64,000 nt of DNA from Vicinamibacterales bacterium (GCA_035626435.1 DASPNQ010000209.1:7623-71622); one strand, 5' to 3'; positions 1,973 to 29,701 are shown, counted from the stretch's first letter. Numbers and translations are program-made. Notes: generated from the sequence alone by a model not told the origin.

Positions 1973-2034
1973 CAGGGAGCTAGGGAGCTAGGGAGCGAGG
2001 GAGCTAGGGAGCGAGGGAGCGAGTAGCTAGTAGC
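1973..2034 (+). repeat. tandem octamer array A: (KAGGGAGC) x6 followed by degenerate GAGTAGC/TAGTAGC units
   Basis: Read directly: CAGGGAGC TAGGGAGC TAGGGAGC GAGGGAGC TAGGGAGC GAGGGAGC GAGTAGC TAGTAGC. It fills the gap between the convergent stops at 1965 and 2027. Confidence 0.95.
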
Positions 2035-2518
2035 TACCAACGCGCGCGAAGGCGTTGAACCCCTTGGACTCGCTGCGGTCGCTGAGGCCCTGGTCGACGC
2101 CGACATCCTCGAATTGAATGGCGTTTGCGCCAATCTCCGCGAGCGCATGCAGCAGCCAATGTCGGCGTTCATCCGGCACGCCGAGCACGGCGATTGCGTG
2201 CGTCGCTTTCGCAAACATGCGCGCGAGCACGCCGCGCATGTAATCCAAATCGGCAGCGCCCGCGAAGGACCGGCAGACGATCACGTCCCAGGGAACGGAA
2301 GGGTCGAGCGTCGAGGCCATGCCGACCTGAAATACCCCTTCCGGCATTGCGGCGATGGCCGTCGCGATTGCGCCGGCCTCTCCGTCGATCCCGCCGACGA
2401 TGTAGCCGTTTCGATGGAAAGGAAAGAGGAAGGCGCCGTCGCCGCAATCGACTTCGAAGATGCGCGTACCGGGTCCGACGTCCAGGACCTCGGCGACATG
2501 TTCCGCCAGCTCGATCAA
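2027..2518 (-). CDS. class I SAM-dependent methyltransferase-like protein
   Basis: 163-aa ORF with a glycine-rich motif-I-like stretch (VLDVGPGT...VDCGDGAF). TTG start lies 1 nt after the stop of the upstream gene (2520), suggesting an operon. Assignment is motif-level only. Confidence 0.45.
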   Translation of the reverse strand: MIELAEHVAEVLDVGPGTRIFEVDCGDGAFLFPFHRNGYIVGGIDGEAGAIATAIAAMPEGVFQVGMASTLDPSVPWDVIVCRSFAGAADLDYMRGVLARMFAKATHAIAVLGVPDERRHWLLHALAEIGANAIQFEDVGVDQGLSDRSESKGFNAFARVGSY

Positions 2519-2519
2519 C

Positions 2520-2957
2520 TTACTTGTCGAGACCGGAGATATCGATAGTGGCGGTGTCGACGGTCACCGACGCCACTTTGGTACCGGCCGGCACGCGGAA
2601 CGGAAAGTTGCACTTGTACTCGGGCACCGAACCCGCGTCGATGATCGACACCGAGGTCTGATAGGTCTTGCCCGACGCGTCCGTCAGAACCGGTTTCTTG
2701 ACAATGGTCTTGGCGTCGAATGCGGGTGTGACCTTGAAGGCCAGCGCCACGACCGCGAACTCGGTGCCCTCGAGGGCGTTGCCGCGGACGCTGTTTTGTC
2801 CCGGCGGGCAATCCACGAGCGCAACGTTCTTGGCGCGCTCTACGCCGATCGGCGTGATGTCGAGGCCTTTGTAGGAGACCGGCTTGGCCGGCTGCGCCGA
2901 CGTGAAGAGCGAAACGTGAAAGGTGAAAAGCAAGCCGGCTACTATTCCACTCTTCAC
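2520..2957 (-). CDS. exported hypothetical protein
   Basis: 145-aa ORF with a GTG start preceded by GGGAGCGGA. N-terminal hydrophobic signal-like segment (IVAGLLFTFHVSLFTSAQP). No recognisable catalytic motif. Confidence 0.55.
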   Translation of the reverse strand: MKSGIVAGLLFTFHVSLFTSAQPAKPVSYKGLDITPIGVERAKNVALVDCPPGQNSVRGNALEGTEFAVVALAFKVTPAFDAKTIVKKPVLTDASGKTYQTSVSIIDAGSVPEYKCNFPFRVPAGTKVASVTVDTATIDISGLDK

Positions 2958-2974
2958 GTTTCCGCTCCCTACGC

Positions 2975-3009
2975 CTTTAACTTTTAACTTTTAACTTTTA
3001 ACTTCCTAG
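2975..3009 (+). repeat. tandem heptamer array (TTTTAAC) x4.5
   Basis: CTTTAAC TTTTAAC TTTTAAC TTTTAAC TTCCTAG read directly. The last unit overlaps the stop codon of the 3006-3827 gene. The first unit lies 18 nt upstream of the GTG start at 2957. Confidence 0.9.
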
Positions 3010-3827
3010 AGCGGCGCATCCGGATTGGCAATCGTCCGCCACATGTGCGCGCTCGGGCTGTTGTCGTTGCCGAGCCCTTCCTTCGGCTGCTTGAAGTGGC
3101 GGCCGATGATGTCTTCGAACGGCTCGATCGACACCTTGGCGTTCGCGTCGAACGCGTAGAGATCGTTGACCGTGACCAGGCGCGGCTCCATGTACCACTT
3201 GTGGTTGCGGAGCATCTTGTAGGTCGCTTCGATGTGGGCTGGCGGTTTGTAGTCTTCGCCGAAAATCCGGTAGTACTGATCGGGATATTCGTAGCCCGCA
3301 TCGAGGTCCGGGTAGAACCGCAGCGTCTGGTGATAGCGGATCGCGAAGGTCGACTTCTCCGGAATGTACGGCTCGAACAGCTGTGCGCCCCACCAGCCGT
3401 GATCCGGCTTGATCAGGTTCAGCACGCAGTCATGCAGCAGGCACGCGAGCGTCACTTCCTCTGACATGCCGGTCTTGAGCGCGCGCGTCGCGCTTTGCAG
3501 CACGTGGTTGGCCGGCGCGAAGCGGAGGCGGAAGAAGTCCTGGAGCGTTGGATTCTTCGGCATCGGCTCGAGCTTCTTGACGTTGCCGCGCGTGTTGACG
3601 AACAGGCTGCCGACGCCGCGGCGATAGTTGCGCGTTTCGATTTGCGCTTCGATTTCGGCGACCGTTGGGAACTTCGGCGGTGCCTGTCCCTGGTTCGCGG
3701 CGACCTGCTCGTCGAGCTGCTCTTCCATCCAGTGCTCGAGGGCGTCGGCCTTGGCTTCCGAGTCCATCATCGCGACGGCCGCCGTGCCTCCGAGGCTGGC
3801 GATGAACGCTCTGCGATCTATTTCCAT
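3006..3827 (-). CDS. Tat-signal HD-domain protein (MIOX-like motif pattern)
   Basis: ATG at 3827 is preceded by GAGGTGGGA. N-terminus MEIDRRAFIASLGGTAAVAMM is a twin-arginine signal. Contains an LLHD (HD) motif, plus IRYHQTLRFYP and VNDLYAFD, which resemble the C-terminal motifs of myo-inositol-oxygenase-type HD diiron enzymes. Confidence 0.6.
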   Translation of the reverse strand: MEIDRRAFIASLGGTAAVAMMDSEAKADALEHWMEEQLDEQVAANQGQAPPKFPTVAEIEAQIETRNYRRGVGSLFVNTRGNVKKLEPMPKNPTLQDFFRLRFAPANHVLQSATRALKTGMSEEVTLACLLHDCVLNLIKPDHGWWGAQLFEPYIPEKSTFAIRYHQTLRFYPDLDAGYEYPDQYYRIFGEDYKPPAHIEATYKMLRNHKWYMEPRLVTVNDLYAFDANAKVSIEPFEDIIGRHFKQPKEGLGNDNSPSAHMWRTIANPDAPL

Positions 3828-3925
3828 GAGTCCCACCTCTACGGCCTACGGCCGCCAGGGGAAACACTACGCCGAGTCCGGCCCTCGTTCAACCGGATCT
3901 TTGTGCTGCGCTGGCGCGTCGCCTG

Positions 3926-4729
3926 CTACTTCACACCCTGACGATGCAGATCGTCGAGCCATCGTTGCGCGAAGGCGCGAGCGGCGTCGGTGGCGGGTTT
4001 TCCGGCCCGAAAAGTCATTTTCCATGCGGCCGGCTTGGCTTCGAGCGTGGGGTCGGCGAACACTTTCTTATCGCCCTTATCGACGAGCTTGGCGTTGAAA
4101 TCGATGTCTTTGGTCGTGTCGAGGAAGTGCCGGAGCCGCATCGCGACCAGCGCTCGCGAGTCAGCCGGATAGACTTTTTCCAGCTCCTGCATCGCCAGAT
4201 CGCGGCTGCGAACCTGCTGGGCGCGTTGTTCACGAAGCACCGCTTCGATTTCCTTGCGGCGCTCGCCTTTTTCCATCTCGTCAAGCTGCCGCCGCATGTC
4301 GGTCCATCCGGCTTCGAGCGTGGCGCGCTGTTCCGGGGTGATCTGATCGAACAGCTTGCGCATCTCGACCACCTGGTTTTCGAACCCGGTGCGCTGTTTC
4401 GCGAATACCTGATCGACGGTTTGCTCGTCCGGCAGCGGGTCGGGGCCGTTCGCTTCGCGATGGTCCGCGTATCGGCGCTTGAAGTCGTCGCTCTCCGCGA
4501 ACGTTCGCGCCATGGTCAGCGCGAAGTTGACGAGCGCGACCCGCGCCGCATCCGGCATGGCGATGAACGCAGCCGGCTTGCCGGCGATTGACACCGCGTC
4601 GGCGACGAAGGAGTCGAAGATTGCTTCCTTGGCGCGCCCTTCGCTAATCCCAAGCGTCGCCAGATGATCCTGCGCCGCGGCCGCGGCCGCGATTACGCAA
4701 ACAAGCGTAACGGTTACGTAAAGTCGCAT
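3926..4729 (-). CDS. exported hypothetical protein
   Basis: 267-aa ORF with a signal-like N-terminus (VTVTLVCVIAAAAAAQ). The rest is helical and charged, with no known motif. Confidence 0.55.
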   Translation of the reverse strand: MRLYVTVTLVCVIAAAAAAQDHLATLGISEGRAKEAIFDSFVADAVSIAGKPAAFIAMPDAARVALVNFALTMARTFAESDDFKRRYADHREANGPDPLPDEQTVDQVFAKQRTGFENQVVEMRKLFDQITPEQRATLEAGWTDMRRQLDEMEKGERRKEIEAVLREQRAQQVRSRDLAMQELEKVYPADSRALVAMRLRHFLDTTKDIDFNAKLVDKGDKKVFADPTLEAKPAAWKMTFRAGKPATDAARAFAQRWLDDLHRQGVK

Positions 4730-4746
4730 AGCAGGGAGTATAGCGT

Positions 4747-4834
4747 TAGGGAGCTAGGGAGCTAGGGAGCGAGGGAGCGAGGGAGCGAGGGAGCGAGGGA
4801 GCGCGAAAGCCGGGGAGCGCGGGAGCCGGGGAGC
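4747..4834 (+). repeat. tandem octamer array B: (KAGGGAGC) x7 plus 4 degenerate units
   Basis: TAGGGAGC x3, GAGGGAGC x4, then GCGAAAGC CGGGGAGC GCGGGAGC CGGGGAGC. Lies between the divergent starts at 4729 and 4951. Confidence 0.95.
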
Positions 4835-4950
4835 GCAAGTCTTGCGATCACGACATGGTTTCTACTGCGCAAGAATTGCGAACAGGTTCGGCGCAAATTG
4901 GTGATCTGCGAACAATTCCGCGTGGCTCGCAGCGTGCATCGACGTGGCGC

Positions 4951-5334
4951 ATGCCCATTAGGTCGTTTCAAGATTTGCTGGTGTGGCAGCGCTCGATGCA
5001 ACTCGCCCAAGACGCCTATCCGATGATCCGTCGGTTGCCTGCGGATGAACGGTTTGAATTGTGTGCGCAGATGCGGCGAGCGGTGGTCTCGACGCCCTCA
5101 AATATCGCCGAGGGCTTCGGCTACGGCTCCACTCGTCGCTACGTCCATCACCTGCGAATCGCACTCGGATCGAATGCCGAGTTTCTCACGCACCTGATGC
5201 CGGCCGAGCGATTACAACTCGTCTCCGCTGACGAGACCAAACCATTAATCGACCATGCGTCGCAAATTGGCCGGATGCTCAACGCGCTGATCCAGTCGTT
5301 GCAACGATATGAACGTGGCTCGCTAGCTCCCTAG
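4951..5334 (+). CDS. four-helix-bundle protein (23S rRNA intervening-sequence protein / Avd-like family)
   Basis: MPIRSFQDLLVWQRSMQLAQDAY...ELCAQMRRAVVSTPSNIAEGFG...HHLRIALGSNAEF matches the TIGR02436/PF05635 pattern (F.DL.VWQ, R...SI..NIAEG, A.GS..E). The tracked ORF starts at 4855, but the family-typical N-terminus is the ATG at 4951. Confidence 0.8.
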   Translation: MPIRSFQDLLVWQRSMQLAQDAYPMIRRLPADERFELCAQMRRAVVSTPSNIAEGFGYGSTRRYVHHLRIALGSNAEFLTHLMPAERLQLVSADETKPLIDHASQIGRMLNALIQSLQRYERGSLAP

Positions 5335-5407
5335 CTGCGCCCAGCTCCCGCGCTCCCTAGCTCCCTAGCTCCCTAGCTCCCTGGCTCCCTGGCTCCCTAG
5401 CTCCCTA
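5318..5407 (-). repeat. tandem octamer array C: 11 units, reverse complement of arrays A/B/D (reads GCTCCCTR on the + strand)
   Basis: GCTCGCTA GCTCCCTA GCTGCGCC, a 2-nt slip, then GCTCCCGC, GCTCCCTA x3, GCTCCCTG x2, GCTCCCTA x2. It starts inside the last codons of the 4951-5334 ORF and ends 5 nt before the helicase stop at 5412. Confidence 0.95.
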
Positions 5408-5411
5408 ATTC

Positions 5412-7082
5412 CTAATTCGCCGGCTTCGACTGAACGGTGACCTTCTGGCCGCGGATCTTGGTTGCTTTCAAGGCGACGATGATTTTTTGCGACACCTCCT
5501 CGGGCACCTCGACGAGCGAGTAGTCGTCGTGCACTTTGATCGCGCCGATCACGCTTGACGGCACCCGCGCTTCGCCGGCGATGGCGCCGACCAGATCGGC
5601 GGGGCGGACGTTGTGTTCCTTACCGACGCTGATTCGCAGCAGCGTCATCGGGCCCGCGTCGCGAGTCGCAGCCGGACGCCGTTCGCGCTGCGGTCCGCGG
5701 TCGTCATAGCGGTCGCGTGAGCGCGTGTCGGGTTCCGTTGCGACGTCGGCAATGGCGCGCTCAGACCCGTCGCTGGCGAGCGCGATCGCGGCCGCGGCGA
5801 CATCCATCAGATCGAACTCGTCGGCGAGCTCCTGCACCAGCTCGCGGGTCAGTTCAAGGCCGCCGGCGGTAATCCGCTCTCGCAGAGCGTCCTTGGTCGC
5901 TTCCATGCGGCGCTTGCGCAGGTCCGCCTCCGTCGGCAGCTTGCCGATCTCGATCTTCTGCTTGGTCAAGCGCTCGACGAATTGCAGAAACCGCTGCTCG
6001 CGTGGCGATACCAGCGTGATCGCGACGCCCTCGCGGCCAATGCGCCCGGTGCGGCCAATGCGATGGACGTAAACTTCAGGCGCCGTGGGTAGATCGAAAT
6101 TGACGACGTGGGAGACGTGCTCGATGTCCAAGCCGCGCGCGGCGACGTCGGTCGCGACGAGAATCTCGGATTGTTCGCTGCGGAACCCCTGCATGACGCG
6201 ATCGCGCTGTTTCTGCATCATGCCGCCATGCAGTGCCTGCGCGCCGTAGCCGTGGGCGTTGAGGGTGTCGGTGAGCTCGTCGACTTCGATGCGGGTGCGG
6301 CAGAAAACGATCGCCGACTTGGGGCTCTCGAAGTCGAGAATCCGGCTGAGCGCGTTGATCTTCTGGCCCCTGCCGACGATGTAGGCAACCTGGCGCACTT
6401 GCGGTAACTTGCCCGCGGCGCGTTTCTCCTGCGCGATCTGCACCTTCTTCGGACTCTTGAGATGCCGTCCGGCGATCGCCATGATCCGCGGCGCAAACGT
6501 CGCGGCAAACAGCGCTGTCTGGCGGGTCGCCGGCGTCTCGTTCACGATCGCGTCGATGTCTTCCGCGAAGCCCATGTCGAGCATCTCGTCCGCTTCATCG
6601 AGCACCAGCACCTTCACCTCGCCCAGCTGCAGTGTCCGCCGGCGCAGATGATCGAGCACGCGACCCGGCGTCCCGACGACGATGTCGGCGCCGCGGCGCA
6701 AGGCGCGGATCTGGTGATCCATCGGCGCGCCGCCGTACACCGGCACGACGACGAGGTTCGAGCCTTTGGCGTATTTATGGAGCGCCTCGGCCACCTGCAT
6801 CGCCAGCTCGCGCGTCGGCACTAACACCAGCGCGCGCGTGCGCCCGCGATCGGCCTTGCCGTCTTTGGACAGGGTATCGAGCAGCGGCAGTGCAAACGCG
6901 GCGGTCTTGCCCGTGCCCGTCGCGGCCTGGCCGAGCATGTCGGCGCCGGACAGCAAGGTGGGAATCGCTTCGCGTTGAATGGGAGTGGGTTCTTCGTAGC
7001 CCAGTGCGGCGACCGCAGCCACGAGGGCGTCGGTTAGACCGAGTGACGCAAATCCAGCCGACTCGGCCGAAGGATTCTTCAT
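5412..7082 (-). CDS. deaD: DEAD-box ATP-dependent RNA helicase with DbpA-type C-terminal RNA-binding domain
   Basis: 556 aa with a Q-motif region (TPIQREAIP), AATGTGKTAAF (Walker A), VLDEADEML (DEAD), ARGLDI and HRIGRTGR. The C-terminal ...LLRISVGKEHNVRPADLVGAI... resembles a DbpA/DeaD RNA-binding domain. Confidence 0.92.
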   Translation of the reverse strand: MKNPSAESAGFASLGLTDALVAAVAALGYEEPTPIQREAIPTLLSGADMLGQAATGTGKTAAFALPLLDTLSKDGKADRGRTRALVLVPTRELAMQVAEALHKYAKGSNLVVVPVYGGAPMDHQIRALRRGADIVVGTPGRVLDHLRRRTLQLGEVKVLVLDEADEMLDMGFAEDIDAIVNETPATRQTALFAATFAPRIMAIAGRHLKSPKKVQIAQEKRAAGKLPQVRQVAYIVGRGQKINALSRILDFESPKSAIVFCRTRIEVDELTDTLNAHGYGAQALHGGMMQKQRDRVMQGFRSEQSEILVATDVAARGLDIEHVSHVVNFDLPTAPEVYVHRIGRTGRIGREGVAITLVSPREQRFLQFVERLTKQKIEIGKLPTEADLRKRRMEATKDALRERITAGGLELTRELVQELADEFDLMDVAAAAIALASDGSERAIADVATEPDTRSRDRYDDRGPQRERRPAATRDAGPMTLLRISVGKEHNVRPADLVGAIAGEARVPSSVIGAIKVHDDYSLVEVPEEVSQKIIVALKATKIRGQKVTVQSKPAN

Positions 7083-7107
7083 CCTTCAACGTTACTTCAT
7101 CACTAAT

Positions 7108-7195
7108 CCGGGGAGTTTGGGGCTAGGGAGCTAGGGAGCAAGGGAGCTGGGGAGCGAGGGAGCTGGGGAGCGAGGGAGCGAGGGAGCTAGGGTGA
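7108..7195 (+). repeat. tandem octamer array D: (NRGGGAGC) about 9-11 units (clear core 7124-7195)
   Basis: TAGGGAGC TAGGGAGC AAGGGAGC TGGGGAGC GAGGGAGC TGGGGAGC GAGGGAGC GAGGGAGC TAGGGTGA, preceded by two degenerate units. It ends 2 nt before the permease stop (7197). The clear core starts 42 nt upstream of the helicase start (7082). Confidence 0.95.
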
Positions 7196-7196
7196 A

Positions 7197-9989
7197 TCAG
7201 TCGACCCGCAGAGCGATGACGGGGTCGACCCTCGTGGCGCGGCGAGCGGGGACGTACGAGGCGAGCAGCGCGATTGCCGCAAACGTCGCGGCGACGACGG
7301 CGAACGTGGCGGGATCGCGGGGCTCGACGCCAAACAGCATCGATTGCAGGAACCGCGCGCCGGCCGCGGCGGTGGCGATGCCGATCGTGATTCCGATCGC
7401 CGCGCAAGCAACGCCGCCGCGCATCACCAGCGCCATGACCTGCCCGCGCTCCGCGCCGAGCGCCATTCGAATGCCAATCTCCTGCGTGCGTTGAACCACC
7501 GAATACGCGAGCACGCTGTAAACCCCGATTGCCGCCAGTACGGCGGCCACGGCGGCAAACATGCCAAGCAGCACGGCATAGAACCGCTGCCGCGCCGTTG
7601 AATACCCGACCATTTCATCCATCGTGTGGATGGCGTCGATGCTCGCGTTCGCGTCCACGGCGCGGACGGCGTCGCGCACCACCGGAAAAAACGCGACCGG
7701 GTTGCCGCGCGTCTTGACGCCGAACGACATGAAGCCGAACGAAATCTGCTCTACCCGGCCCTTCGGAAAGTTCATCCGTTCGTGGATCGCTCGCACCTGA
7801 CGGTAGTCCATGAAGATCTCCGCATATGCGGGTGCTGCCACGCGGCCCTGTCGAACGTCCTCCACGACGCCAACCACGTGCAGCGGCGCGTCAAACGGCC
7901 TCAATGTCGGATTGAGACCGGCACCCGTTCGCCAGACAATCGTCTGCCCGACGGGATTTGCGTCACCGAAATAGCGCTTGGCCACCGATCGGCTGATGAC
8001 GACGTTGACGGCGCCTCCGACGACGCCATCGCGTTCATCGAGATACCGGCCGCCGAGCAGCGGCACCCCCATCGTCTCGAGGTAGCCGGGGCTCAGCGAC
8101 TTCAATCGCGGCTTTTCGGGCTCCGTCTGCATCTCTTCGACGGTTCGACCTGGTGGGATGAACACACCGACCGTGTCCTGGAGACCGAGCAGGATGCCCG
8201 CGTACGCAAACCCCGCATGCGCAACGTCGGTCTTGTTGCGCAGCGCGGCCAACAGCGATTCAATCGTCGCGGCCTTTCGCGCGGTGGCGTATTCGGCCGG
8301 CAGCACGAGCTGGAACGCGACCACGTTCGAGGGGTCGTAGCCTTTCTCGACTCGCGACAGGCTGATGAAGCTGTTGACGAGCAGTCCCGCTGCGACGAGA
8401 AGGACCGTCGCGAGCATCACTTGGCTGACGACCAGTATGGTGCGCGTGCGCGTCTCGCGCCGCGGCCGCGAATGGCCACGCGCTCCCAGCGATTGCAGCT
8501 GGCTGACCCGCGAAAGATGCCAGGCCGGCAACACCCCAAACAAGGCGCTCGCAATCCCCGACAGCGTGAGGGCGATCAGCAGCAGCGTACGGTCGACCGA
8601 CACTTCCTGCAGGCGCGGCAGCAGGTTGGCGCCGAACACGATCCGAAATACACCCTGTGCCTCGATGGTCGCCAGATGTTTGGTCACAGCCACGCCGGCG
8701 GCGCCCAACGCCGCTCCCAACGTCCCGCCGATGGCGGCGAGGACGACGCATTCGGTCAGGATCTGGCGCATTACGCGCGAGCGGCTCGCGCCGATCGCCA
8801 GACGCACCCCGATTTCTCTCGCGCGCGCGGTGCCGCGCGCCATCAGCAGGTTCGCCACGTTGGCGCAGACGATCAGCAGCACAACGGCGACCGCGACGAG
8901 GCACACCCGTAACGCCGGCCGCATCGGCGCGACGAGGTCCTCTTTCACCGAGGACACCTTGAATCGCGGCCGCGTCAGGGCCGGCGCCGTTGCCGGCCGC
9001 GGCGGCCGAATAGCGTTGCCAATAGCGTTGGCCTCGCTTTCCGCCGCCTGAAGCGACACGCCTTCTCGGAGACGCGCTCGCACTGTCACCCCGGGTGGCC
9101 GGCTGTACATGCCGCGCACCATCGGCATGTAGAACTCGAACGCATCACCATAGGTGTCGAATTCAGGCGGGAGGACGCCGATGATCGTCAGCAGCCGGAC
9201 GGGGTCACCGGCCTGTGCGCCGAGGTTGCTGGGCCCCTGACCGATGCTGCCGCGCAGCTCGATGACCGAGCCAACCGCACTCGGATCCCTCCGGAAGTAG
9301 TTACGCCAGGTACCCTCGGTAATAACGACGACGTCGCCCTGGATGTCGTCCTGCCGATCGATCAGCCTGCCCAGGGCCGGGCGGACGCCGAGCACCTGGA
9401 AATAGTTCGTGGAGACAATGGCCGCGGTGAGCCGCGCCGTGCTCTCGCGTGTCCGCATGATGACCTGCGGATTGAAGGTGTGCGTCGCGAGATCCTCGAG
9501 TGTCTCGCTACGGGAGCGCCAGTCGAGCGCCTCCTGATAATTGATTCCGGGTACGCCGGGTGGCGCCTCGGGTTCGGTGATCGCGACCAGGCGATCGCTG
9601 TCCGCGAAGGGCAACGGGCGAATCAGCACGGTATCGACGATGCTGTAGATGGTTGTTGTCGCGCCGATACCGATCGCCAGTGTGAGAACGGCGGCGATCG
9701 TGAACGCCGGACTGCGACGCAGCGATCGCACGGCATAGGCCGCGTCGCGCGGAACGTCGCCGATCCACCGAAATGCCCGGGCGTCGCGTTGCAGCTCCTT
9801 CGCTTGCTCGATGCCTCCGAACGCACGCCGGGCCGCCAGCTTCGCATCGGCCGCGGACATGCCGTTGTTGATGAACTCCTCTTCGAGCAGTGACAAGTGC
9901 GATGCGATCTCTCGACTCAGCTCCCGCTCCGCACGGGACCAGCGCAGGATTGCAAGGACCCGCCAGAGGAATTCGCGCAAAGAGGCCAT
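7197..9989 (-). CDS. ADOP-family duplicated permease (MacB/FtsX-like, no fused ATPase)
   Basis: 930 aa. Has the characteristic N-terminal cytoplasmic extension (SREIASHLSLLEEEF...GMSAADAKLAARRAFGGIEQAKELQRDAR...YAVRSLRRSPAFT) followed by two MacB-periplasmic-core/FtsX halves. Start lies 6 nt downstream of the PadR stop. Confidence 0.88.
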   Translation of the reverse strand: MASLREFLWRVLAILRWSRAERELSREIASHLSLLEEEFINNGMSAADAKLAARRAFGGIEQAKELQRDARAFRWIGDVPRDAAYAVRSLRRSPAFTIAAVLTLAIGIGATTTIYSIVDTVLIRPLPFADSDRLVAITEPEAPPGVPGINYQEALDWRSRSETLEDLATHTFNPQVIMRTRESTARLTAAIVSTNYFQVLGVRPALGRLIDRQDDIQGDVVVITEGTWRNYFRRDPSAVGSVIELRGSIGQGPSNLGAQAGDPVRLLTIIGVLPPEFDTYGDAFEFYMPMVRGMYSRPPGVTVRARLREGVSLQAAESEANAIGNAIRPPRPATAPALTRPRFKVSSVKEDLVAPMRPALRVCLVAVAVVLLIVCANVANLLMARGTARAREIGVRLAIGASRSRVMRQILTECVVLAAIGGTLGAALGAAGVAVTKHLATIEAQGVFRIVFGANLLPRLQEVSVDRTLLLIALTLSGIASALFGVLPAWHLSRVSQLQSLGARGHSRPRRETRTRTILVVSQVMLATVLLVAAGLLVNSFISLSRVEKGYDPSNVVAFQLVLPAEYATARKAATIESLLAALRNKTDVAHAGFAYAGILLGLQDTVGVFIPPGRTVEEMQTEPEKPRLKSLSPGYLETMGVPLLGGRYLDERDGVVGGAVNVVISRSVAKRYFGDANPVGQTIVWRTGAGLNPTLRPFDAPLHVVGVVEDVRQGRVAAPAYAEIFMDYRQVRAIHERMNFPKGRVEQISFGFMSFGVKTRGNPVAFFPVVRDAVRAVDANASIDAIHTMDEMVGYSTARQRFYAVLLGMFAAVAAVLAAIGVYSVLAYSVVQRTQEIGIRMALGAERGQVMALVMRGGVACAAIGITIGIATAAAGARFLQSMLFGVEPRDPATFAVVAATFAAIALLASYVPARRATRVDPVIALRVD

Positions 9990-16503: not shown

Positions 16504-17310
16504 ATGACGAGACGATTGGCAATTCTTTCGGCGGCGTTCGTGCTGACCGCGACCGTTGCATCCGCACAGGCCACGACGACCGGGCAGAAGCCGTTCGAGC
16601 CGCAGGTTGGCCAGGCCGGCAAGGACGTGGTCTGGGTGCCGACCCCGCAGGCGGTAGTCGACAAGATGCTCGACATGGCGCAAGTCACCAGTAGCGACAC
16701 GGTGATCGATCTCGGATCGGGCGACGGCCGCACGGTGATCACCGCCGCCAAGCGCGGCGCGCGTGCCTATGGCATCGAGTACAACCCGGACATGGTGGAG
16801 CTGTCGAAGAAGAACGCGGCGGCGGCGGGCGTCACCGATCGGGCGACGTTCATCCAGGCCGACCTGTTCGAATTCGTGAAGGGCGATCAGTTCAAGAACG
16901 CGACCGTCATCACGATGTTCCTGCTGCCGTCGATCAACATGAAGCTGCGGCCCACCATTCTCGATCTCAAGCCGGGCACGCGCGTCGCCTCGAACACCTT
17001 CACGATGGAAGACTGGCAGGCCGATGAGACGGCGACGGTCACCGACGGCTGCTCGAGCAGCTGGTGCACGGCGCTGTTCTGGATCGTGCCGGCGAAGGTT
17101 GCCGGCACGTGGAACACGCCCAACGGCGCGTTGACGCTGACGCAGAACTTCCAGATGCTGAGCGGCACGCTTGGCAACCAGGCCGTTCAGGGCCGCCTGC
17201 GCGGGAACGAGATCACGCTGACCGCCGGCAATCAGAAGTGGTCGGGCGTCGTCGACGGCAGCACGATCAAGTTCTCCGCGCCGTCGGCGATGACCGCCAC
17301 CAAGAAATAG
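16504..17310 (+). CDS. signal-peptide-bearing class I SAM-dependent methyltransferase-like protein
   Basis: ATG 16504 is preceded by GGAGA. N-terminus MTRRLAILSAAFVLTATVASAQ is Sec-signal-like. Motif I is VIDLGSGDGR, followed by GIEYNPDMV and FIQADLF. Paralogous to the 33680-34207 gene. Confidence 0.7.
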   Translation: MTRRLAILSAAFVLTATVASAQATTTGQKPFEPQVGQAGKDVVWVPTPQAVVDKMLDMAQVTSSDTVIDLGSGDGRTVITAAKRGARAYGIEYNPDMVELSKKNAAAAGVTDRATFIQADLFEFVKGDQFKNATVITMFLLPSINMKLRPTILDLKPGTRVASNTFTMEDWQADETATVTDGCSSSWCTALFWIVPAKVAGTWNTPNGALTLTQNFQMLSGTLGNQAVQGRLRGNEITLTAGNQKWSGVVDGSTIKFSAPSAMTATKK

Positions 17311-17422
17311 GTGCCAAAGTGCCAAGGTGCCAAGCGGTGCGACGGTGCCGCCTGGCACCTAGGTGTTGGCACTGTGGCACCCGCACCCCTTTGGCACCGT
17401 GGCACTTTTGGCACGTTGGCAC
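17311..17422. repeat. inverted pair of octamer arrays: (GTGCCAAN) x3-5 facing (TTGGCAC/TGGCAC) x7
   Basis: GTGCCA at 17311, 17319 and 17327, then GGTGCG and GGTGCC. Centre GGTGCC-GCCT-GGCACC (17344-17359). TGGCAC at 17353, 17367, 17375, 17392, 17400, 17409 and 17417. Starts 1 nt after the stop at 17310. Confidence 0.9.
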
Positions 17423-17648
17423 TTAGAATCCTGCAGAAACCAGCCTAATTCGACTGATTAGAACAATCGTTTAAGACGCGCGCCGATTCAGGTCTTGGCA
17501 CCGTTGTCTACGATTGTCTCGAAAGGTCTTATCTTCTTGCCCCATCTATGCTTACGGGCGATTGGGTGTATATTTTCCACAGGTTCAAGTAGGACGCCGA
17601 GACAGCACTTCGGGGTCCTTGTTCTTCGTGCGTTTGGGGATGTTCGAA

Positions 17649-27475: not shown

Positions 27476-28138
27476 TTGCGAATTCTGGTGATTGAGGACG
27501 AAGTTCAACTCGCAGCGCAGCTTACCCGCACGCTGGGCGACGCCGGCTACGCGGTCGATCACGCTGCTGACGGCGAACGCGGGGAGTTTCTCGGCCGGAC
27601 CGAGGGCTATGACGCTGTGATCCTCGACCTGGGACTTCCGAAAATGGACGGACTCACTGTGTTGCGGCAATGGCGCGAAGCCGGTCTGGCGATGCCCGTG
27701 CTGATCCTGACCGCACGCGGCAGCTGGCACGAGAAGGTCCAGGGCATCGACGGCGGCGCCGACGATTATGTCGCCAAGCCGTTTCAAGTCGAAGAGGTAC
27801 TGGCGCGTTTACGCGCGCTGATACGACGATCGAGCGGCCAGGTCACGCCGGAGCTACGGTGTGGCCGAGTGGTGCTCGATCCGCGCGGCGCCCGCGTCTC
27901 GGTCGATGGCGTTCCGGTCAAGCTGACCAGCCACGAGTTCCGCGTCCTTTCGTACCTGATGCACCATCGCGGCCGCATCGTCTCGCAGTCGGAGCTCACC
28001 GAGCATATCTATTCGCAGGGCTTCGATCGCGATTCGAACACCGTCGAAGTCTTCATTGCGCGGCTGCGCCGCAAGCTGGGTGGAACGTTCATCGAAACGG
28101 TGCGCGGCATGGGTTATCGGATCGAGGCCGGCAACTGA
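27476..28138 (+). CDS. OmpR-family response regulator
   Basis: TTG start. MRILVIEDE...DAVILDLGLPKMDG...LTAR receiver domain plus a C-terminal winged-helix (LTSHEFRVLSYLM...VEVFIARLRRKL...TVRGMGYR). Confidence 0.92.
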   Translation: MRILVIEDEVQLAAQLTRTLGDAGYAVDHAADGERGEFLGRTEGYDAVILDLGLPKMDGLTVLRQWREAGLAMPVLILTARGSWHEKVQGIDGGADDYVAKPFQVEEVLARLRALIRRSSGQVTPELRCGRVVLDPRGARVSVDGVPVKLTSHEFRVLSYLMHHRGRIVSQSELTEHIYSQGFDRDSNTVEVFIARLRRKLGGTFIETVRGMGYRIEAGN

Positions 28139-29133
28139 TGGTGTCGCTGCGCGCGCGGGTGTTCCTGGGCGCCCTGCTGTGGAGTCTTGGACTGTTTCTC
28201 GGCAGCGGCATGATCCTCACGCACTACATGCTGTTCGTGCCGCAGGCCCCAGGGATTTTTCACGGTTTCTTCATCCACTACATGTACGCGATCTTCATCG
28301 TCACCATCGCCAGCATGGTGATCGGCCTGCGCCAGGTGCGCAAGGGGCTTGCGTCATTTGATGAATTACGCGCGCGATTGCCGGGCGTTCGCGAGGGCAA
28401 GCAATCGCGTCTCGACGGCGAATATCCGTCGGAGGTGCAGCCGTTGGTGAACGACCTCAACGCGTTGCTCGCCGATCGTGAGCAGCGCATTACGAAGGCG
28501 CAACTGAAAGCTGGCGATCTTGCGCACGGCTTGAAGACACCGCTGACGCTGCTGAATCAGCAGGCCGAGCGGGCGCGGGAGGGTGGGCAGCGGGAGCTGG
28601 CCGCCGCGATCACGCAGCAGATCGAGCGGATGCGCCGCCAGATCGAGTACCACCTCGCGCATGCGCGCGCGTCGGCGGCGGGCGGCACACCTGCCGCTCG
28701 CTGCCATGTCCTGACGTCGGCCGACGCGTTGGCTCGGACCATGCTGGCGTTGCACGCCGAGCGGTCGCTCAGCCTCGATTGCAACGTGTCGCACGAGCAT
28801 TTCGTCAGAGCGCAACGCGAAGACTTCGAGGAGATGCTCGGCAATCTCGTGGACAACGCCTGCAAGTGGGCTCGTTCGCGCGTTACCGTACAGTCGACGC
28901 TGGAGGGCGGCAGCATCACGACGACGGTGGATGACGACGGGCCGGGGCTGGCAGATGCGTTGCGGGAGACGGTATTACAGCGCGGCGTCCGGGCCGACGA
29001 AGCCGCGCCCGGTTCCGGGCTCGGCCTCGCCATCGTCGCCGATCTGGTCGAGTTGTACGGCGGCACCATCACGCTGACATCGTCACCGCTTGGCGGACTC
29101 CGCGCCATCCTGCGGTTGCCATCGGCATCGTAA
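28138..29133 (+). CDS. sensor histidine kinase (partner of the preceding regulator)
   Basis: The ATG overlaps the regulator stop (TGATG). Two N-terminal TM helices, H-box DLAHGLKTPLTLL, N-box VDNACKWA, G-boxes DDDGPGL and GSGLGLAIV. The upstream part of the tracked ORF (from 27670) is an out-of-gene extension. Confidence 0.88.
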   Translation: MVSLRARVFLGALLWSLGLFLGSGMILTHYMLFVPQAPGIFHGFFIHYMYAIFIVTIASMVIGLRQVRKGLASFDELRARLPGVREGKQSRLDGEYPSEVQPLVNDLNALLADREQRITKAQLKAGDLAHGLKTPLTLLNQQAERAREGGQRELAAAITQQIERMRRQIEYHLAHARASAAGGTPAARCHVLTSADALARTMLALHAERSLSLDCNVSHEHFVRAQREDFEEMLGNLVDNACKWARSRVTVQSTLEGGSITTTVDDDGPGLADALRETVLQRGVRADEAAPGSGLGLAIVADLVELYGGTITLTSSPLGGLRAILRLPSAS

Positions 29134-29143
29134 GCAGCTAACG

Positions 29144-29231
29144 CTGCCTGACTGCCTGACTGCTTGACTGCCTGACTGCCTGACTGCCTGTCTGCCTGTC
29201 TGCCTGTCTGCCTGTCTGCCTGACTGCCTGT
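29144..29231 (+). repeat. tandem octamer array (CTGCCTGW) x11
   Basis: CTGCCTGA x2, CTGCTTGA, CTGCCTGA x2, CTGCCTGT x4, CTGCCTGA, CTGCCTGT. Starts 11 nt after the kinase stop (29133) and ends 2 nt before the stop of the convergent gene (29233). Confidence 0.95.
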
Positions 29232-29232
29232 C

Positions 29233-29586
29233 TTACCTGTCCTTCGGATGCACTTCGATCTTCGTCGCGATGTTCGCGGTTCCGTGGACGTCGTAGTGAA
29301 CAGTCACGGTCGCCCCGTGGGTGGTCGCGAGACCTGACGCGCCCTTGTCGGCGCCGATGATCTCGGTCGTATCCGAATAGCTGAACTTCACTTCCGTGTC
29401 CGCATTCGTTTTCACGACCAGCGTCTTGGTGTCGGGATTCAATGTGAGCAACTCGCCTGTCACCGGCTCAGGCGTCTTCGCACGCGCGTGCTCGACTGGT
29501 GCCGGTTGCGTTTGCTGAGATGCCAACGTGACTGACAGCGGTGCAGCGGAAAGCGTGACGGCGATGGCGATTGCAGCGGTTTTCAT
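29233..29586 (-). CDS. exported hypothetical protein
   Basis: Start taken at MKTAAIAIAVTLSAAPLSV (ATG 29586, GGGGG upstream). Small beta-rich mature part. No known motif. Confidence 0.55.
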   Translation of the reverse strand: MKTAAIAIAVTLSAAPLSVTLASQQTQPAPVEHARAKTPEPVTGELLTLNPDTKTLVVKTNADTEVKFSYSDTTEIIGADKGASGLATTHGATVTVHYDVHGTANIATKIEVHPKDR

Positions 29587-29701
29587 ATGGCCCCCGAGGG
29601 GTGAATCGCTGCAAGAACCGTACACACAAGAATTACGTTTACCTCTGCCGATTCTTTGCTAGACTGACCGCTCTTCTCAATTCAAAGGACACGCGTCGCC
29701 C

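What the first reader, a model, noticed from the sequence alone, without database searches (positions are those of the whole stretch)
1973..7195. Four arrays of one octamer (KAGGGAGC) within 5.3 kb: G-quadruplex-capable, six-frame-stop, SD-mimicking sequence
Seen: arrays lie at 1973-2034, 4747-4834, 5318-5407 (opposite strand) and 7108-7195. I did not notice this unit elsewhere in the window. Each array offers at least 6 GGG tracts separated by exactly 5 nt, which satisfies the canonical G3-N(1-7) x4 quadruplex rule on the G-rich strand; the complement is C-tract rich. The TAGGGAGC variant creates CTAG at each junction, so TAG occurs every 8 nt on both strands, giving stops in all six frames within three units. 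GGGAG also resembles a Shine-Dalgarno core repeated many times. Inference: the arrays could act as structural (G4 or i-motif) elements, translation or transcription insulators between genes, or ribosome-binding decoys. Their local clustering suggests spread by local duplication or recombination.
Basis: partly seen in the sequence, partly recalled or inferred. Interest (0 to 1): 0.6.

Follow-up and report, generated by a model that had tools for sequence, protein, structure and literature searches.

The report
Repeat arms of a four-helix-bundle cassette
The four octamer arrays are real, but two of them are the mirror-image arms of a small inserted gene cassette encoding a "23S rRNA intervening-sequence" four-helix-bundle protein and the other two are gene-less arrays of the same unit in neighbouring gene gaps, which ties an orphan protein family to the long-unexplained 7-8-base tandem repeats of bacterial genomes.

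Summary
There are four intergenic GGGAGCNA arrays, with 28 pattern hits against 0.14 expected.

They are not free-standing G-quadruplex or stop-codon devices. Arrays 4747-4834 and 5318-5407 are inverted arms around a PF05635/TIGR02436 four-helix-bundle (FHB) gene at 4951-5334. Congeners lack this 661-bp cassette at that site. Arrays 1973-2034 and 7108-7195 are gene-less arrays of the same unit.

The genome holds about 300 arrays of 7-8 bp in about 12 unit families. Seven of its eight FHB genes have such arrays beside them, five as strict same-unit inverted pairs, each with its own unit. Only 3 of 3,514 other genes are bracketed this way.

Inverted matching arms recur in 26 of 36 loci from the order and 22 of 55 metagenome loci. 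The arm unit co-diverges with the protein. Related cassettes lie in neighbouring gaps around the same helicase and permease genes in other lineages. Array 7108-7195 is 7 units longer in a 99.9%-identical contig.

G4-capable units are a minority (37%) of the arrays.

My reading is an IVS-like or REPtron-like selfish hairpin cassette whose arms grow by slippage; the mechanism is inferred. This scan has noted the same design in about 77 other genomes. I found no paper linking the two.

The parts
1973..2034 (+). Solo array A1: six GGGAGCKA units followed by about 2.7 AGCTAGT units. It fills the 61-bp gap between the convergent caa3 subunit IV gene (stop 1965) and a 163-aa gene (stop 2027).
   Evidence: The same gap is about 0-10 bp in congener G005. 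In G003 it holds an inverted AAGTTGA heptamer pair.
2976..3004 (.). TTTAACT x4.1 array of another unit family (AAAAGTT, 20 arrays genome-wide), in the gap between the 145-aa and 276-aa genes.
   Evidence: Congeners G016 and G005 have CTTGAGA x2.9 in the same gap.
4747..4834 (+). Upstream (G-rich) arm of the cassette, 11 units. The outer units are TAGGGAGC; the inner units are degenerate.
   Evidence: It pairs with 5318-5407 at -164 kcal/mol, against -87 for shuffled arms.
4835..4950 (+). Leader of the cassette, lying between the arm and the start codon. No promoter consensus was found.
4951..5334 (+). Four-helix-bundle protein gene (127 aa; PF05635 / TIGR02436). Its stop codon lies inside the first unit of the downstream arm.
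   Evidence: TIGR02436 scores 105.9 bits against a cut-off of 24. The 127-aa product matches a database gene call exactly. The model has pLDDT 94.9 and four helices. It matches 2GSC at TM 0.86, 2RLD, and Avd 4DWL at 0.76. GC3 is 0.67 against a genome median of 0.81.
5318..5407 (-). Downstream (C-rich on +) arm of the cassette, 11 units. It ends 5 bp from the helicase stop.
5404..5418 (-). Two CCTAATT units at the outer edge of the downstream arm; they overlap the helicase stop codon region (5412 onward). They belong to a different small family (AATTAGG, 4 arrays genome-wide).
5412..7082 (-). DEAD-box RNA helicase gene (CshA/DeaD-like). It is one of only three non-FHB genes in the genome bracketed by inverted same-unit arrays.
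   Evidence: The 5' and 3' arrays of its transcript could pair at -142 kcal/mol.
7108..7195 (+). Solo array A4, 11 units, between the ADOP permease stop (7197) and the helicase start (7082). It is length-polymorphic.
   Evidence: It is 56 bp (7 units) longer in ENA contig L059, which is otherwise 99.87% identical over 5,242 bp. Related cassettes occupy a matching position: L174 at the orthologous ADOP 3' end, and L057 at the orthologous helicase 5' end, though there the gene on the far side is a Lactamase_B gene and not ADOP.

Best explanation
**Shown**
- Arrays 2 and 3 are the inverted, complementary arms of a 661-bp cassette (4747-5407) that carries one gene, a PF05635 four-helix-bundle (FHB) protein.
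- The cassette is an insertion relative to congeners.
- Arrays 1 and 4 are gene-less arrays of the same unit in adjacent gene gaps.
- The genome holds about 300 such arrays of 7-8 bp in about 12 unit families. Nearly every FHB gene sits between inverted arrays of its own unit.
- The unit co-diverges with the protein.
- Array length changes between near-identical strains.
- Cassettes of one FHB clade occupy neighbouring gaps in related lineages.

**Inferred**
- This is a selfish, hairpin-forming cassette. It resembles an ORF-bearing 23S rRNA intervening sequence lodged between protein genes. It also resembles a REPtron, that is, a gene flanked by inverted copies of the repeat it is associated with.
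- The arms expand and contract by replication slippage.
- On a transcript the arms form an 88-bp stem, probably an RNase III substrate. Cleavage there would let the host tolerate the insert.
- The cassette or its arms spread over short distances by recombination or template switching. Loss of the gene leaves hairpins and solo arrays such as A1 and A4.
- The FHB protein, a likely nucleic-acid-binding pentamer like Avd, is assumed to act on its own repeat.
For: **Gene identity:**

**Arms pair:** the cassette RNA folds at -356 kcal/mol with z = -12.6. The arm duplex is -164 kcal/mol against -87 for shuffled arms.

**Insertion:** the helicase-to-p267 gap is 682 bp here. It is about 140 bp and about 100 bp of unique sequence in G016 and G005. 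In G003 it holds a gene-less 13-nt-unit hairpin. Sixteen helicase-orthologue loci from relatives (15 congeners and one same-order genome) show no GGGAGCNA arrays and no FHB gene.

**Association in this genome:** 7 of 8 FHB genes have short arrays beside them. Five of 8 have strict inverted same-unit arms, against 3 of 3,514 other genes. Adjacent same-unit arrays are inverted 25 times and direct 5 times. Their gaps are either 3-150 bp or about 480-530 bp.

**Generality:** 30 of 36 loci in the order have arrays on both sides, and 26 of these are inverted with matching units. In metagenomes 48 of 55 loci have at least one array and 22 have clean inverted pairs. A cultured Gemmatirosa plasmid locus shows the same design.

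**Co-divergence:** the share of FHB pairs with the same unit falls with protein identity: 100% at 98% identity or more, 83% at 80-98%, 69% at 70-80%, 29% at 60-70%, 6% at 50-60% and 2-3% below that. Units are retained where synonymous sites are saturated. dN/dS is 0.07-0.37.

**Local movement:** FHB relatives at 60-63% identity lie at the 3' end of the orthologous helicase (L054-56; helicase 74% identical), at its 5' end (L057; 84%), and at the 3' end of the orthologous ADOP (L174; 76%).

**Slippage:** arm copy numbers are 4, 10 and 4, and 5.4, 8.4 and 8.4, in three assemblies that encode an identical FHB protein. Array A4 gains 7 units in L059.

**Foreign composition:** all seven FHB genes have GC3 of 0.60-0.73 against a genome median of 0.81.
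Against: - Gene-less arrays vastly outnumber genes: about 26 arrays to 1 gene for this unit, and about 300 to 8 genome-wide. No FHB remnants lie next to solo arrays. In-situ decay therefore cannot explain most of them.
- Of 80 loci with GGGAGCTA arrays in other phyla, only 4 have an FHB within the fetched stretch (at most 8 kb). None of those has GGGAGCTA on both sides. One FHB only 28% identical to ours has a TAGGGAGC arm. Units can therefore recur independently of protein lineage.
- No nuclease, recombinase or polymerase sits in the cassette. No RT was found in the assembled genome. No target-site duplication could be defined.
- Unit sharing among close proteins may simply reflect common descent of whole cassettes.
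- Short-read assemblies can misjudge array length.
Confidence: 0.6

Rival explanations
1. The arrays come first and the gene is a guest. Arrays and hairpins of 7-8 bp arise and spread by an FHB-independent route, such as slippage from chance seeds or host recombination. FHB genes then home into, or survive only inside, pre-existing hairpin loops.
For: - Solo arrays and empty hairpins far outnumber cassettes.
- The same gene gaps carry different units in different congeners.
- GGGAGCTA arrays occur in many phyla, mostly with no FHB within the fetched stretch of at most 8 kb.
- The large ACAGGCAG and AAAAGTT families have no FHB gene in this assembly.
Against: - Units co-diverge with the protein and are kept at synonymous saturation.
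- Both arms of a cassette nearly always carry the same unit.
- FHB genes and unit families correspond nearly one to one in this genome.
- Chance seeding would not yield the same octamer at 26 sites.
Confidence: 0.2
2. One reading: the arrays are free-standing G-quadruplex or i-motif elements that regulate or insulate neighbouring genes.
For: - The G3-N5 x4 motif is met in all four arrays.
- G4-aware folding places quadruplexes in three of the four arrays (A1, A2, A4).
- Similar GGGNATC repeats form G4 in vitro (PMC4692102).
- Genome-wide, the G- or purine-rich strand is sense in 97 of 138 co-directional contexts.
Against: - 63% of the 7-8-bp arrays in the genome lack G3 tracts, yet behave alike.
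- This family shows no strand bias: 8 sense and 7 antisense (my count).
- There is no preference for four units; the median is about 8.
- In the cassette the C-rich partner arm favours a duplex of -164 kcal/mol.
Confidence: 0.08
3. The arrays are host-adopted RNA-processing stems. Inverted arrays bracket particular genes, here the DEAD-box helicase. The transcript would then fold into a long stem that controls processing or stability, as in rRNA operons.
For: - The helicase is one of three non-FHB genes bracketed by inverted same-unit arrays; the others are rpsG and a thioesterase.
- The predicted 5'/3' duplex is -142 kcal/mol.
Against: - Only three such genes exist.
- Helicase orthologues in 16 relatives lack the arrays.
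- The inverted bias could result from purging of direct repeats, which delete the intervening gene.
- No RNA data are available.
Confidence: 0.07
4. The arrays are translation or transcription insulators, or Shine-Dalgarno decoys. Repeated TAG stops and GGGAG cores would trap ribosomes or stop read-through between genes.
For: - CTAG gives stops in five or six frames.
- There are 6-10 GGAG cores per array.
- Arrays start a median of 5 bp after the upstream stop codon.
Against: - Most unit families have no stops or only one-strand stops.
- Half of this family's arrays are antisense to their neighbours (my count).
- G, C and A variants of the unit carry no stop.
- Abutting the stop codon is expected from deletion bias alone.
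Confidence: 0.05

Closest known systems
ORF-bearing intervening sequences (IVS) of 23S rRNA (Leptospira, Coxiella S23p-type ORF; from established knowledge)
   Same: A small PF05635 four-helix-bundle ORF is enclosed by inverted repeats that form a long stem in the transcript. The element is inserted into a host transcription unit and is patchy among relatives.
   Different: Here it lies between protein-coding genes, not in 23S rRNA. The stem arms are tandem arrays of a 7-8-nt unit that vary in copy number. Dozens of gene-less arrays of the same unit are dispersed in the genome. RNase III excision is untested.
Short tandemly repeated repetitive (STRR) and heptameric SSRs: GGGAATC in Xanthomonas, GGGGAYT in Nostoc (Rehm et al. 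2015, PMC4692102); TAACTGA in Beggiatoaceae (PMC4679880)
   Same: Intergenic, dispersed, copy-number-variable tandem units of 7(-8) nt. Several unit families occur per genome. Convergent inverted pairs are frequent: 70-75 in Xanthomonas. Some units are G4-capable.
   Different: Those papers treat the repeats as stand-alone elements and do not mention a four-helix-bundle gene. Here the unit is an octamer in an acidobacterium, and the arrays are tied to an FHB gene. Xanthomonas XCC0516 (2GSC) is the best structural match of this protein; whether it is flanked by GGGAATC arrays was not tested.
REPIN/REP-RAYT systems (REPtrons)
   Same: One gene is flanked by inverted copies of a repeat that is also dispersed through the genome as gene-less singlets and doublets. 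Each gene has its own repeat family. This genome's own RAYT-like gene on contig C49 shows exactly this layout with 32-34-nt repeats.
   Different: The flanked gene is not a Y1 HUH transposase, and no catalytic motif is known. The repeat is a tandem 7-8-mer, not a 20-40-nt imperfect palindrome.
Avd, the accessory protein of diversity-generating retroelements (PDB 4DWL, 8UB7)
   Same: Same fold (TM 0.76) and same Pfam family. Avd is a pentameric nucleic-acid- and RT-binding barrel.
   Different: The Avd equivalog score is 29 bits against a cut-off of 80. No RT was found in the assembled genome, and no template or variable repeat pair is evident.
Eukaryotic Foldback transposons (from established knowledge)
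   Same: Long terminal inverted repeats are themselves built of short tandem repeats. There are gene-less and gene-carrying copies.
   Different: Different domain of life, no transposase identified here, and no target-site duplication defined.

Membership tests
PF05635 / TIGR02436 four-helix-bundle protein (23S rRNA IVS protein family) | HMM score above the curated cut-off | tested here: met
   TIGR02436 scores 105.9 bits against a cut-off of 24. PF05635 scores 105.2 bits against 33.8.
PF05635 / TIGR02436 four-helix-bundle protein (23S rRNA IVS protein family) | Four-helix up-down bundle fold like 2GSC and 2RLD | tested here: met
   The model has pLDDT 94.9 and four helices. TM is 0.86 to 2GSC and 0.74-0.77 to 2RLD.
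ORF-bearing 23S rRNA intervening sequence | Located inside the 23S rRNA gene (helix 25 or 45) | tested here: not met
   It lies between a 267-aa protein gene and a DEAD-box helicase gene.
ORF-bearing 23S rRNA intervening sequence | ORF enclosed by inverted repeats that form a long stem | tested here: met
   An 88-bp stem; duplex -164 kcal/mol; whole-cassette z = -12.6.
ORF-bearing 23S rRNA intervening sequence | Excision of the stem by RNase III | not testable with these tools
Diversity-generating retroelement (Avd component) | Avd equivalog score and an adjacent reverse transcriptase | tested here: not met
   NF033474 scores 29.2 bits against a cut-off of 80. There is no PF00078 match in the assembled genome.
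STRR / heptameric-SSR class | Head-to-tail units of 7(-8) nt, dispersed, mostly intergenic, with several unit families per genome | tested here: met
   About 300 arrays in about 12 main families. Most are intergenic. There are 26 GGGAGCNA arrays, all between genes by crude calls.
STRR / heptameric-SSR class | Copy-number variation between strains | tested here: met
   A4 differs by 7 units in L059. The arms in L054-56 differ. Caveat: these are short-read assemblies.
Canonical G-quadruplex motif | G3+ N1-7 repeated four times on one strand | tested here: met
   6-11 GGG tracts and 3-12 motif starts per array.
Canonical G-quadruplex motif | K+-dependent quadruplex folding | not testable with these tools
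   This needs CD or melting of oligonucleotides.
REP/REPIN-RAYT system | Gene flanked by inverted copies of its dispersed repeat | tested here: met
REP/REPIN-RAYT system | The flanked gene is a Y1 (HUH) transposase and the repeat is a 20-40-nt imperfect palindrome | tested here: not met
   The gene is an FHB and the unit is an 8-mer. The genome's two Y1_Tnp genes have their own 32-44-nt repeats.
CRISPR array | Repeats separated by unique spacers | tested here: not met
   The units are contiguous.
MITE / foldback transposon | Terminal inverted repeats plus a target-site duplication | tested here: inconclusive
   Inverted arms are present. The congener gaps cannot be aligned, so no duplication could be defined.

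The most novel reading that the evidence does not exclude
Each FHB protein is a sequence-specific binder of its own 7-8-nt unit, on single-stranded DNA or RNA and perhaps one unit per subunit of a pentamer. It would drive the expansion and short-range dispersal of that unit. FHB-array pairs would then form a widespread, enzyme-less (or host-polymerase-dependent) intragenomic repeat-propagation system, analogous to REPIN-RAYT. That system would be the source of the long-unexplained heptamer and octamer repeats (STRR, GGGAATC and others) across many bacterial phyla.
Probability: 0.3. Interest if true: 0.9.

Novelty: new variant of a known kind. Interest (0 to 1): 0.7.

Why it matters
Short 7-8-base tandem repeats have been catalogued in cyanobacteria, Xanthomonas, Beggiatoaceae and other bacteria for decades without a known origin. 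The PF05635 "S23/IVS" proteins have had solved structures since 2006-2007 without a function outside retroelements.

This window shows the two together, in a form that can be dissected:
- a live cassette;
- two gene-less arrays of the same unit nearby;
- an empty site in congeners;
- strain-level length change;
- related cassettes that have shifted between neighbouring gene gaps.

If the protein acts on its own repeat, this is a new class of self-propagating genome element. It would also be a common cause of assembly breaks and of operon-internal hairpins in soil bacteria. Cultured carriers make it testable: Gemmatirosa kalamazoonensis KBS708 and Nostoc PCC 7120, both checked here, and possibly Xanthomonas campestris, whose FHB gene's flanks were not examined.

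Tried and rejected
- **Polar degeneracy of arrays.** I asked whether the 5' and 3' thirds on the G-rich strand differ. They do not (3.86 against 3.78 mismatches per unit, p = 0.28), so there is no evidence for one-ended growth.
- **Retro-synthesis of repeats.** A telomerase- or DGR-like route was dropped because no RT domain is found in the assembled genome.
- **RAYT/REP explanation.** Rejected. The two Y1 transposase genes have their own 32-44-nt repeats.
- **Functional coupling of FHB to the DEAD-box helicase.** Rejected. No other FHB locus in the order sample has a helicase neighbour. The adjacency is limited to the closest FHB clade and fits shared ancestry plus local moves.
- **Promoter and terminator scans.** Nothing above the shuffle background.
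- **Genome-wide clustering of same-family arrays.** Only modest: 14 pairs within 5 kb against 5.9 +/- 2.5 expected, and the window itself contributes much of it.
- **Literature.** Six searches found no paper linking PF05635 genes to short tandem arrays. The library lacks most subscription journals.
- **Gene calls.** The crude in-house gene caller placed 33 arrays of 7-8 bp "inside genes". These are mostly stop-free GC-rich units read through by spurious ORFs.

Full report
**1. Observation**

GGGAGCNAGGGAGC with up to one mismatch hits 28 times, only inside these arrays, against 0.14 expected; no shuffle reaches that count. All four lie between genes:
- A1 lies between the convergent caa3 subunit IV gene and a 163-aa gene.
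- A2 and A3 lie either side of ORF 4855-5334.
- A4 lies between an ADOP permease and a DEAD-box helicase.

Each array has 6-11 GGG tracts. Stops occur in six frames in A3 and A4 and in five frames in A1 and A2.

**2.

The ORF between A2 and A3 is a four-helix-bundle (FHB) protein of the "23S rRNA intervening-sequence protein" family. TIGR02436 scores 105.9 bits against a cut-off of 24. The start at 4951 gives a 127-aa product identical to a database gene call. The model has pLDDT 94.9 and four helices. It superposes on Xanthomonas XCC0516 (2GSC, TM 0.86), BT_0352 (2RLD) and the DGR protein Avd (4DWL, TM 0.76).

A2 is G-rich on the gene's sense strand and A3 is its complement. As RNA the 686-nt element folds at -356 kcal/mol (z = -12.6) with an 88-bp terminal stem. 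The arm duplex is -164 kcal/mol, against -87 for shuffled arms.

**3. The genome-wide picture**

The window lies in a 4.70-Mb, 64.6% GC assembly of 252 contigs. Earlier notes of this scan assign it to the Vicinamibacterales, and the ADOP permease fits Acidobacteria.

- TRF finds about 300 arrays with period 6-9 and at least 3.5 copies, in about 12 main unit families. GGGAGCKA, with about 23-26 arrays, is one of them.
- Most arrays are intergenic. They start a median of 5 bp after the upstream stop codon.
- Adjacent arrays of the same unit are inverted 25 times and direct 5 times. Their gaps are either 3-150 bp (gene-less hairpins) or about 480-530 bp.
- The genome has eight PF05635 matches. 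Seven have short arrays beside them, each with a different unit.
- By a strict test, 5 of 8 FHB genes have inverted same-unit arrays within 250 bp. Only 3 of 3,514 other called genes do: a thioesterase, rpsG and the window's helicase.
- All seven FHB genes have GC3 of 0.60-0.73, against a genome median of 0.81.

**4. The cassette is an insertion, and the gaps are reused**

Helicase orthologues (64-82% identity) in 16 relatives (15 congeners and one same-order genome) have no GGGAGCNA arrays and no FHB gene nearby.

| Gap | This genome | Relatives |
|---|---|---|
| helicase to p267 | 682 bp (cassette) | about 140 bp (G016) and about 100 bp (G005) of unique DNA; a gene-less hairpin of 13-nt units in G003 |
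| caa3-IV to p163 | A1, 61 bp | about 0-10 bp in G005; an inverted AAGTTGA pair in G003 |
| p145 to p276 | TTTAACT x4 | CTTGAGA x2.9 in G016 and G005 |

The same gene gaps are therefore hit repeatedly by arrays of different units.

**5. Generality, tested here**

- Of 36 FHB loci (7 in this genome and 29 from 150 other genomes sampled from the order), 30 have arrays on both sides. Twenty-six of these are inverted with matching units. The upstream arm is G-rich on the sense strand in most.
- In an independent metagenome sample, 48 of 55 assessable loci have at least one adjacent array and 22 have clean inverted pairs.
- A cultured Gemmatirosa kalamazoonensis plasmid shows GAGGGCAG and CTCCTGCC arms around its FHB gene. 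On two Nostoc PCC 7120 plasmids the FHB gene keeps a downstream CTTCTGC array next to IS insertions.

**6. Unit and protein**

The share of FHB pairs with the same unit (at most one mismatch) falls steadily with protein identity:

| Protein identity | Pairs sharing the unit |
|---|---|
| 98% or more | 100% |
| 80-98% | 83% |
| 70-80% | 69% |
| 60-70% | 29% |
| 50-60% | 6% |
| below 50% | 2-3% |

The pairs are not independent.

Units persist where synonymous sites are saturated (dS 1.7-2.1 or not computable). The genes are under purifying selection, with dN/dS of 0.07-0.37.

Our protein's nearest relatives anywhere are only 60-63% identical. Their arms carry TTAGAGG (a clade 70-89% identical within itself), GGGATCA or GGGGAYY.

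The unit can also recur without protein kinship. Exact GGGAGCTA arrays occur in at least 111 stretches of GTDB representatives from Gemmatimonadota, Cyanobacteria, Bacteroidota, Chloroflexota, Planctomycetota and others. They are mostly solo arrays or hairpins. One Dehalococcoidia FHB only 28% identical to ours has a TAGGGAGC arm.

**7. Local movement and length change**

Cassettes of the closest FHB clade lie in three positions:
- at the 3' end of the orthologous helicase (L054-56; helicase 74% identical);
- at its 5' end (L057; 84% identical);
- at the 3' end of the orthologous ADOP permease (L174; 76% identical).

The L174 position is the gap that holds our solo array A4, in the orientation of an upstream arm. 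The L057 position is the helicase-5' side of that gap, though its far neighbour there is a Lactamase_B gene. No other FHB locus in the order sample neighbours a helicase. This is therefore shared ancestry plus short-range relocation, not functional coupling.

Three assemblies that encode an identical FHB protein differ in arm copy number: 4, 10 and 4 upstream, and 5.4, 8.4 and 8.4 downstream. An ENA contig that is 99.87% identical to the window over 5,242 bp carries A4 with 7 extra units, while the other three arrays are identical. Short-read assembly error cannot be excluded.

**8.

- Only 98 of 265 arrays of 7-8 bp have a G3 or C3 tract, and only three main families give six-frame stops.
- Copy numbers show no peak at four.
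- Genome-wide, the G- or purine-rich strand is sense in 97 co-directional contexts and antisense in 41. A possible reason is selection against C-rich, Rho-loading RNA; that is inference. For GGGAGCKA the split is 8 to 7 (my count).
- G4, stop and SD features are real in the sequence. They are unit-specific by-products, not the organising principle.

**9. Mechanism**

Shown: the anatomy, the insertion, the association, the co-divergence, the polymorphism and the local relocation.

Inferred:
- The element is a selfish hairpin cassette. It is built like an ORF-bearing 23S rRNA IVS, and also like a REPtron. This genome's own RAYT-like gene on contig C49 sits between inverted arrays of 32-34-nt repeats.
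- The arms change length by slippage.
- The transcript stem is probably cut by RNase III, which would explain why the host tolerates the insert between genes.
- Gene loss or arm spread leaves hairpins and solo arrays.
- The FHB protein probably acts on its own repeat. By homology it is a nucleic-acid-binding pentamer; 2GSC, 2RLD and 4DWL each have five chains.

No catalytic activity is known for the protein. No RT is found in the assembled genome. Solo arrays outnumber genes about 30 to 1. The direction of dependence, whether the protein makes the arrays or the gene lodges in arrays, is therefore open. I put 0.6 on the first and 0.2 on the second.

**10. Novelty and prior notes**

Published work treats such repeats as stand-alone: Rehm et al. 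2015 (PMC4692102), which notes 70-75 convergent pairs in Xanthomonas, and MacGregor 2015 (PMC4679880). Neither mentions the FHB gene. Six full-text searches found no paper making the link.

This scan has already noted the same design in this genome (the GGGAGCC family) and in about 77 others. I found the association independently and tested the notes' main claims here.

Noticed in passing
window 17309-17424: A gene-less hairpin of another family: (GGTGCCAA)n at 17309-17334 and the inverted (TTGGCACN)n at 17390-17424, with a loop of about 55 bp, between two co-directional genes. The genome's FHB gene on contig C122 has arms of the same family.
   Followed up: partly
window 29144-29230: A solo array (CTGCCTGA/CTGCCTGT) x10.9 fills the whole gap between two convergent genes (27670-29133 + and 29233-29625 -). 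It belongs to the largest family (ACAGGCAG, 27 arrays), for which no FHB gene was found in this assembly.
   Followed up: partly
G000 contig C98:17368-17978: The ribosomal protein S7 gene (rpsG) is bracketed by inverted heptamer arrays (TGAAAGC and AGCTGTC/GCTGAAA). Such arrays therefore sit beside at least one essential ribosomal-protein gene; its neighbours were not examined.
   Followed up: no
G000 contig C49:21722-23015 and C240:7215-7995: Of two Y1 transposase (RAYT-like) genes, the one on C49 lies between inverted tandem arrays of its own 32-34-nt repeat, a REPtron-like layout; the one on C240 has a 44-nt tandem repeat on one side only. These are separate from the 7-8-mer families.
   Followed up: partly
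L023 (G003:C170) 7921-8035: A congener has a gene-less palindromic array of 13-nt units (GGTTCCTCACGGT / GAACCTCCGTCCG) in the helicase-p267 gap, the same gap where this genome has its FHB cassette.
   Followed up: partly
genome-wide (G000): In co-directional gene contexts the G- or purine-rich strand of the 7-8-mer arrays is on the sense strand 97 times and antisense 41 times. This could reflect selection against C-rich, Rho-loading RNA inside operons. It is untested.
   Followed up: partly
L070 and L084 (genome contigs): An Anaerolineales MAG and a Gemmatimonas MAG from the same co-assembly (SRP119689) give identical FHB hit scores and mirrored array layouts. This suggests the same contig was binned into two genomes.
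   Followed up: no
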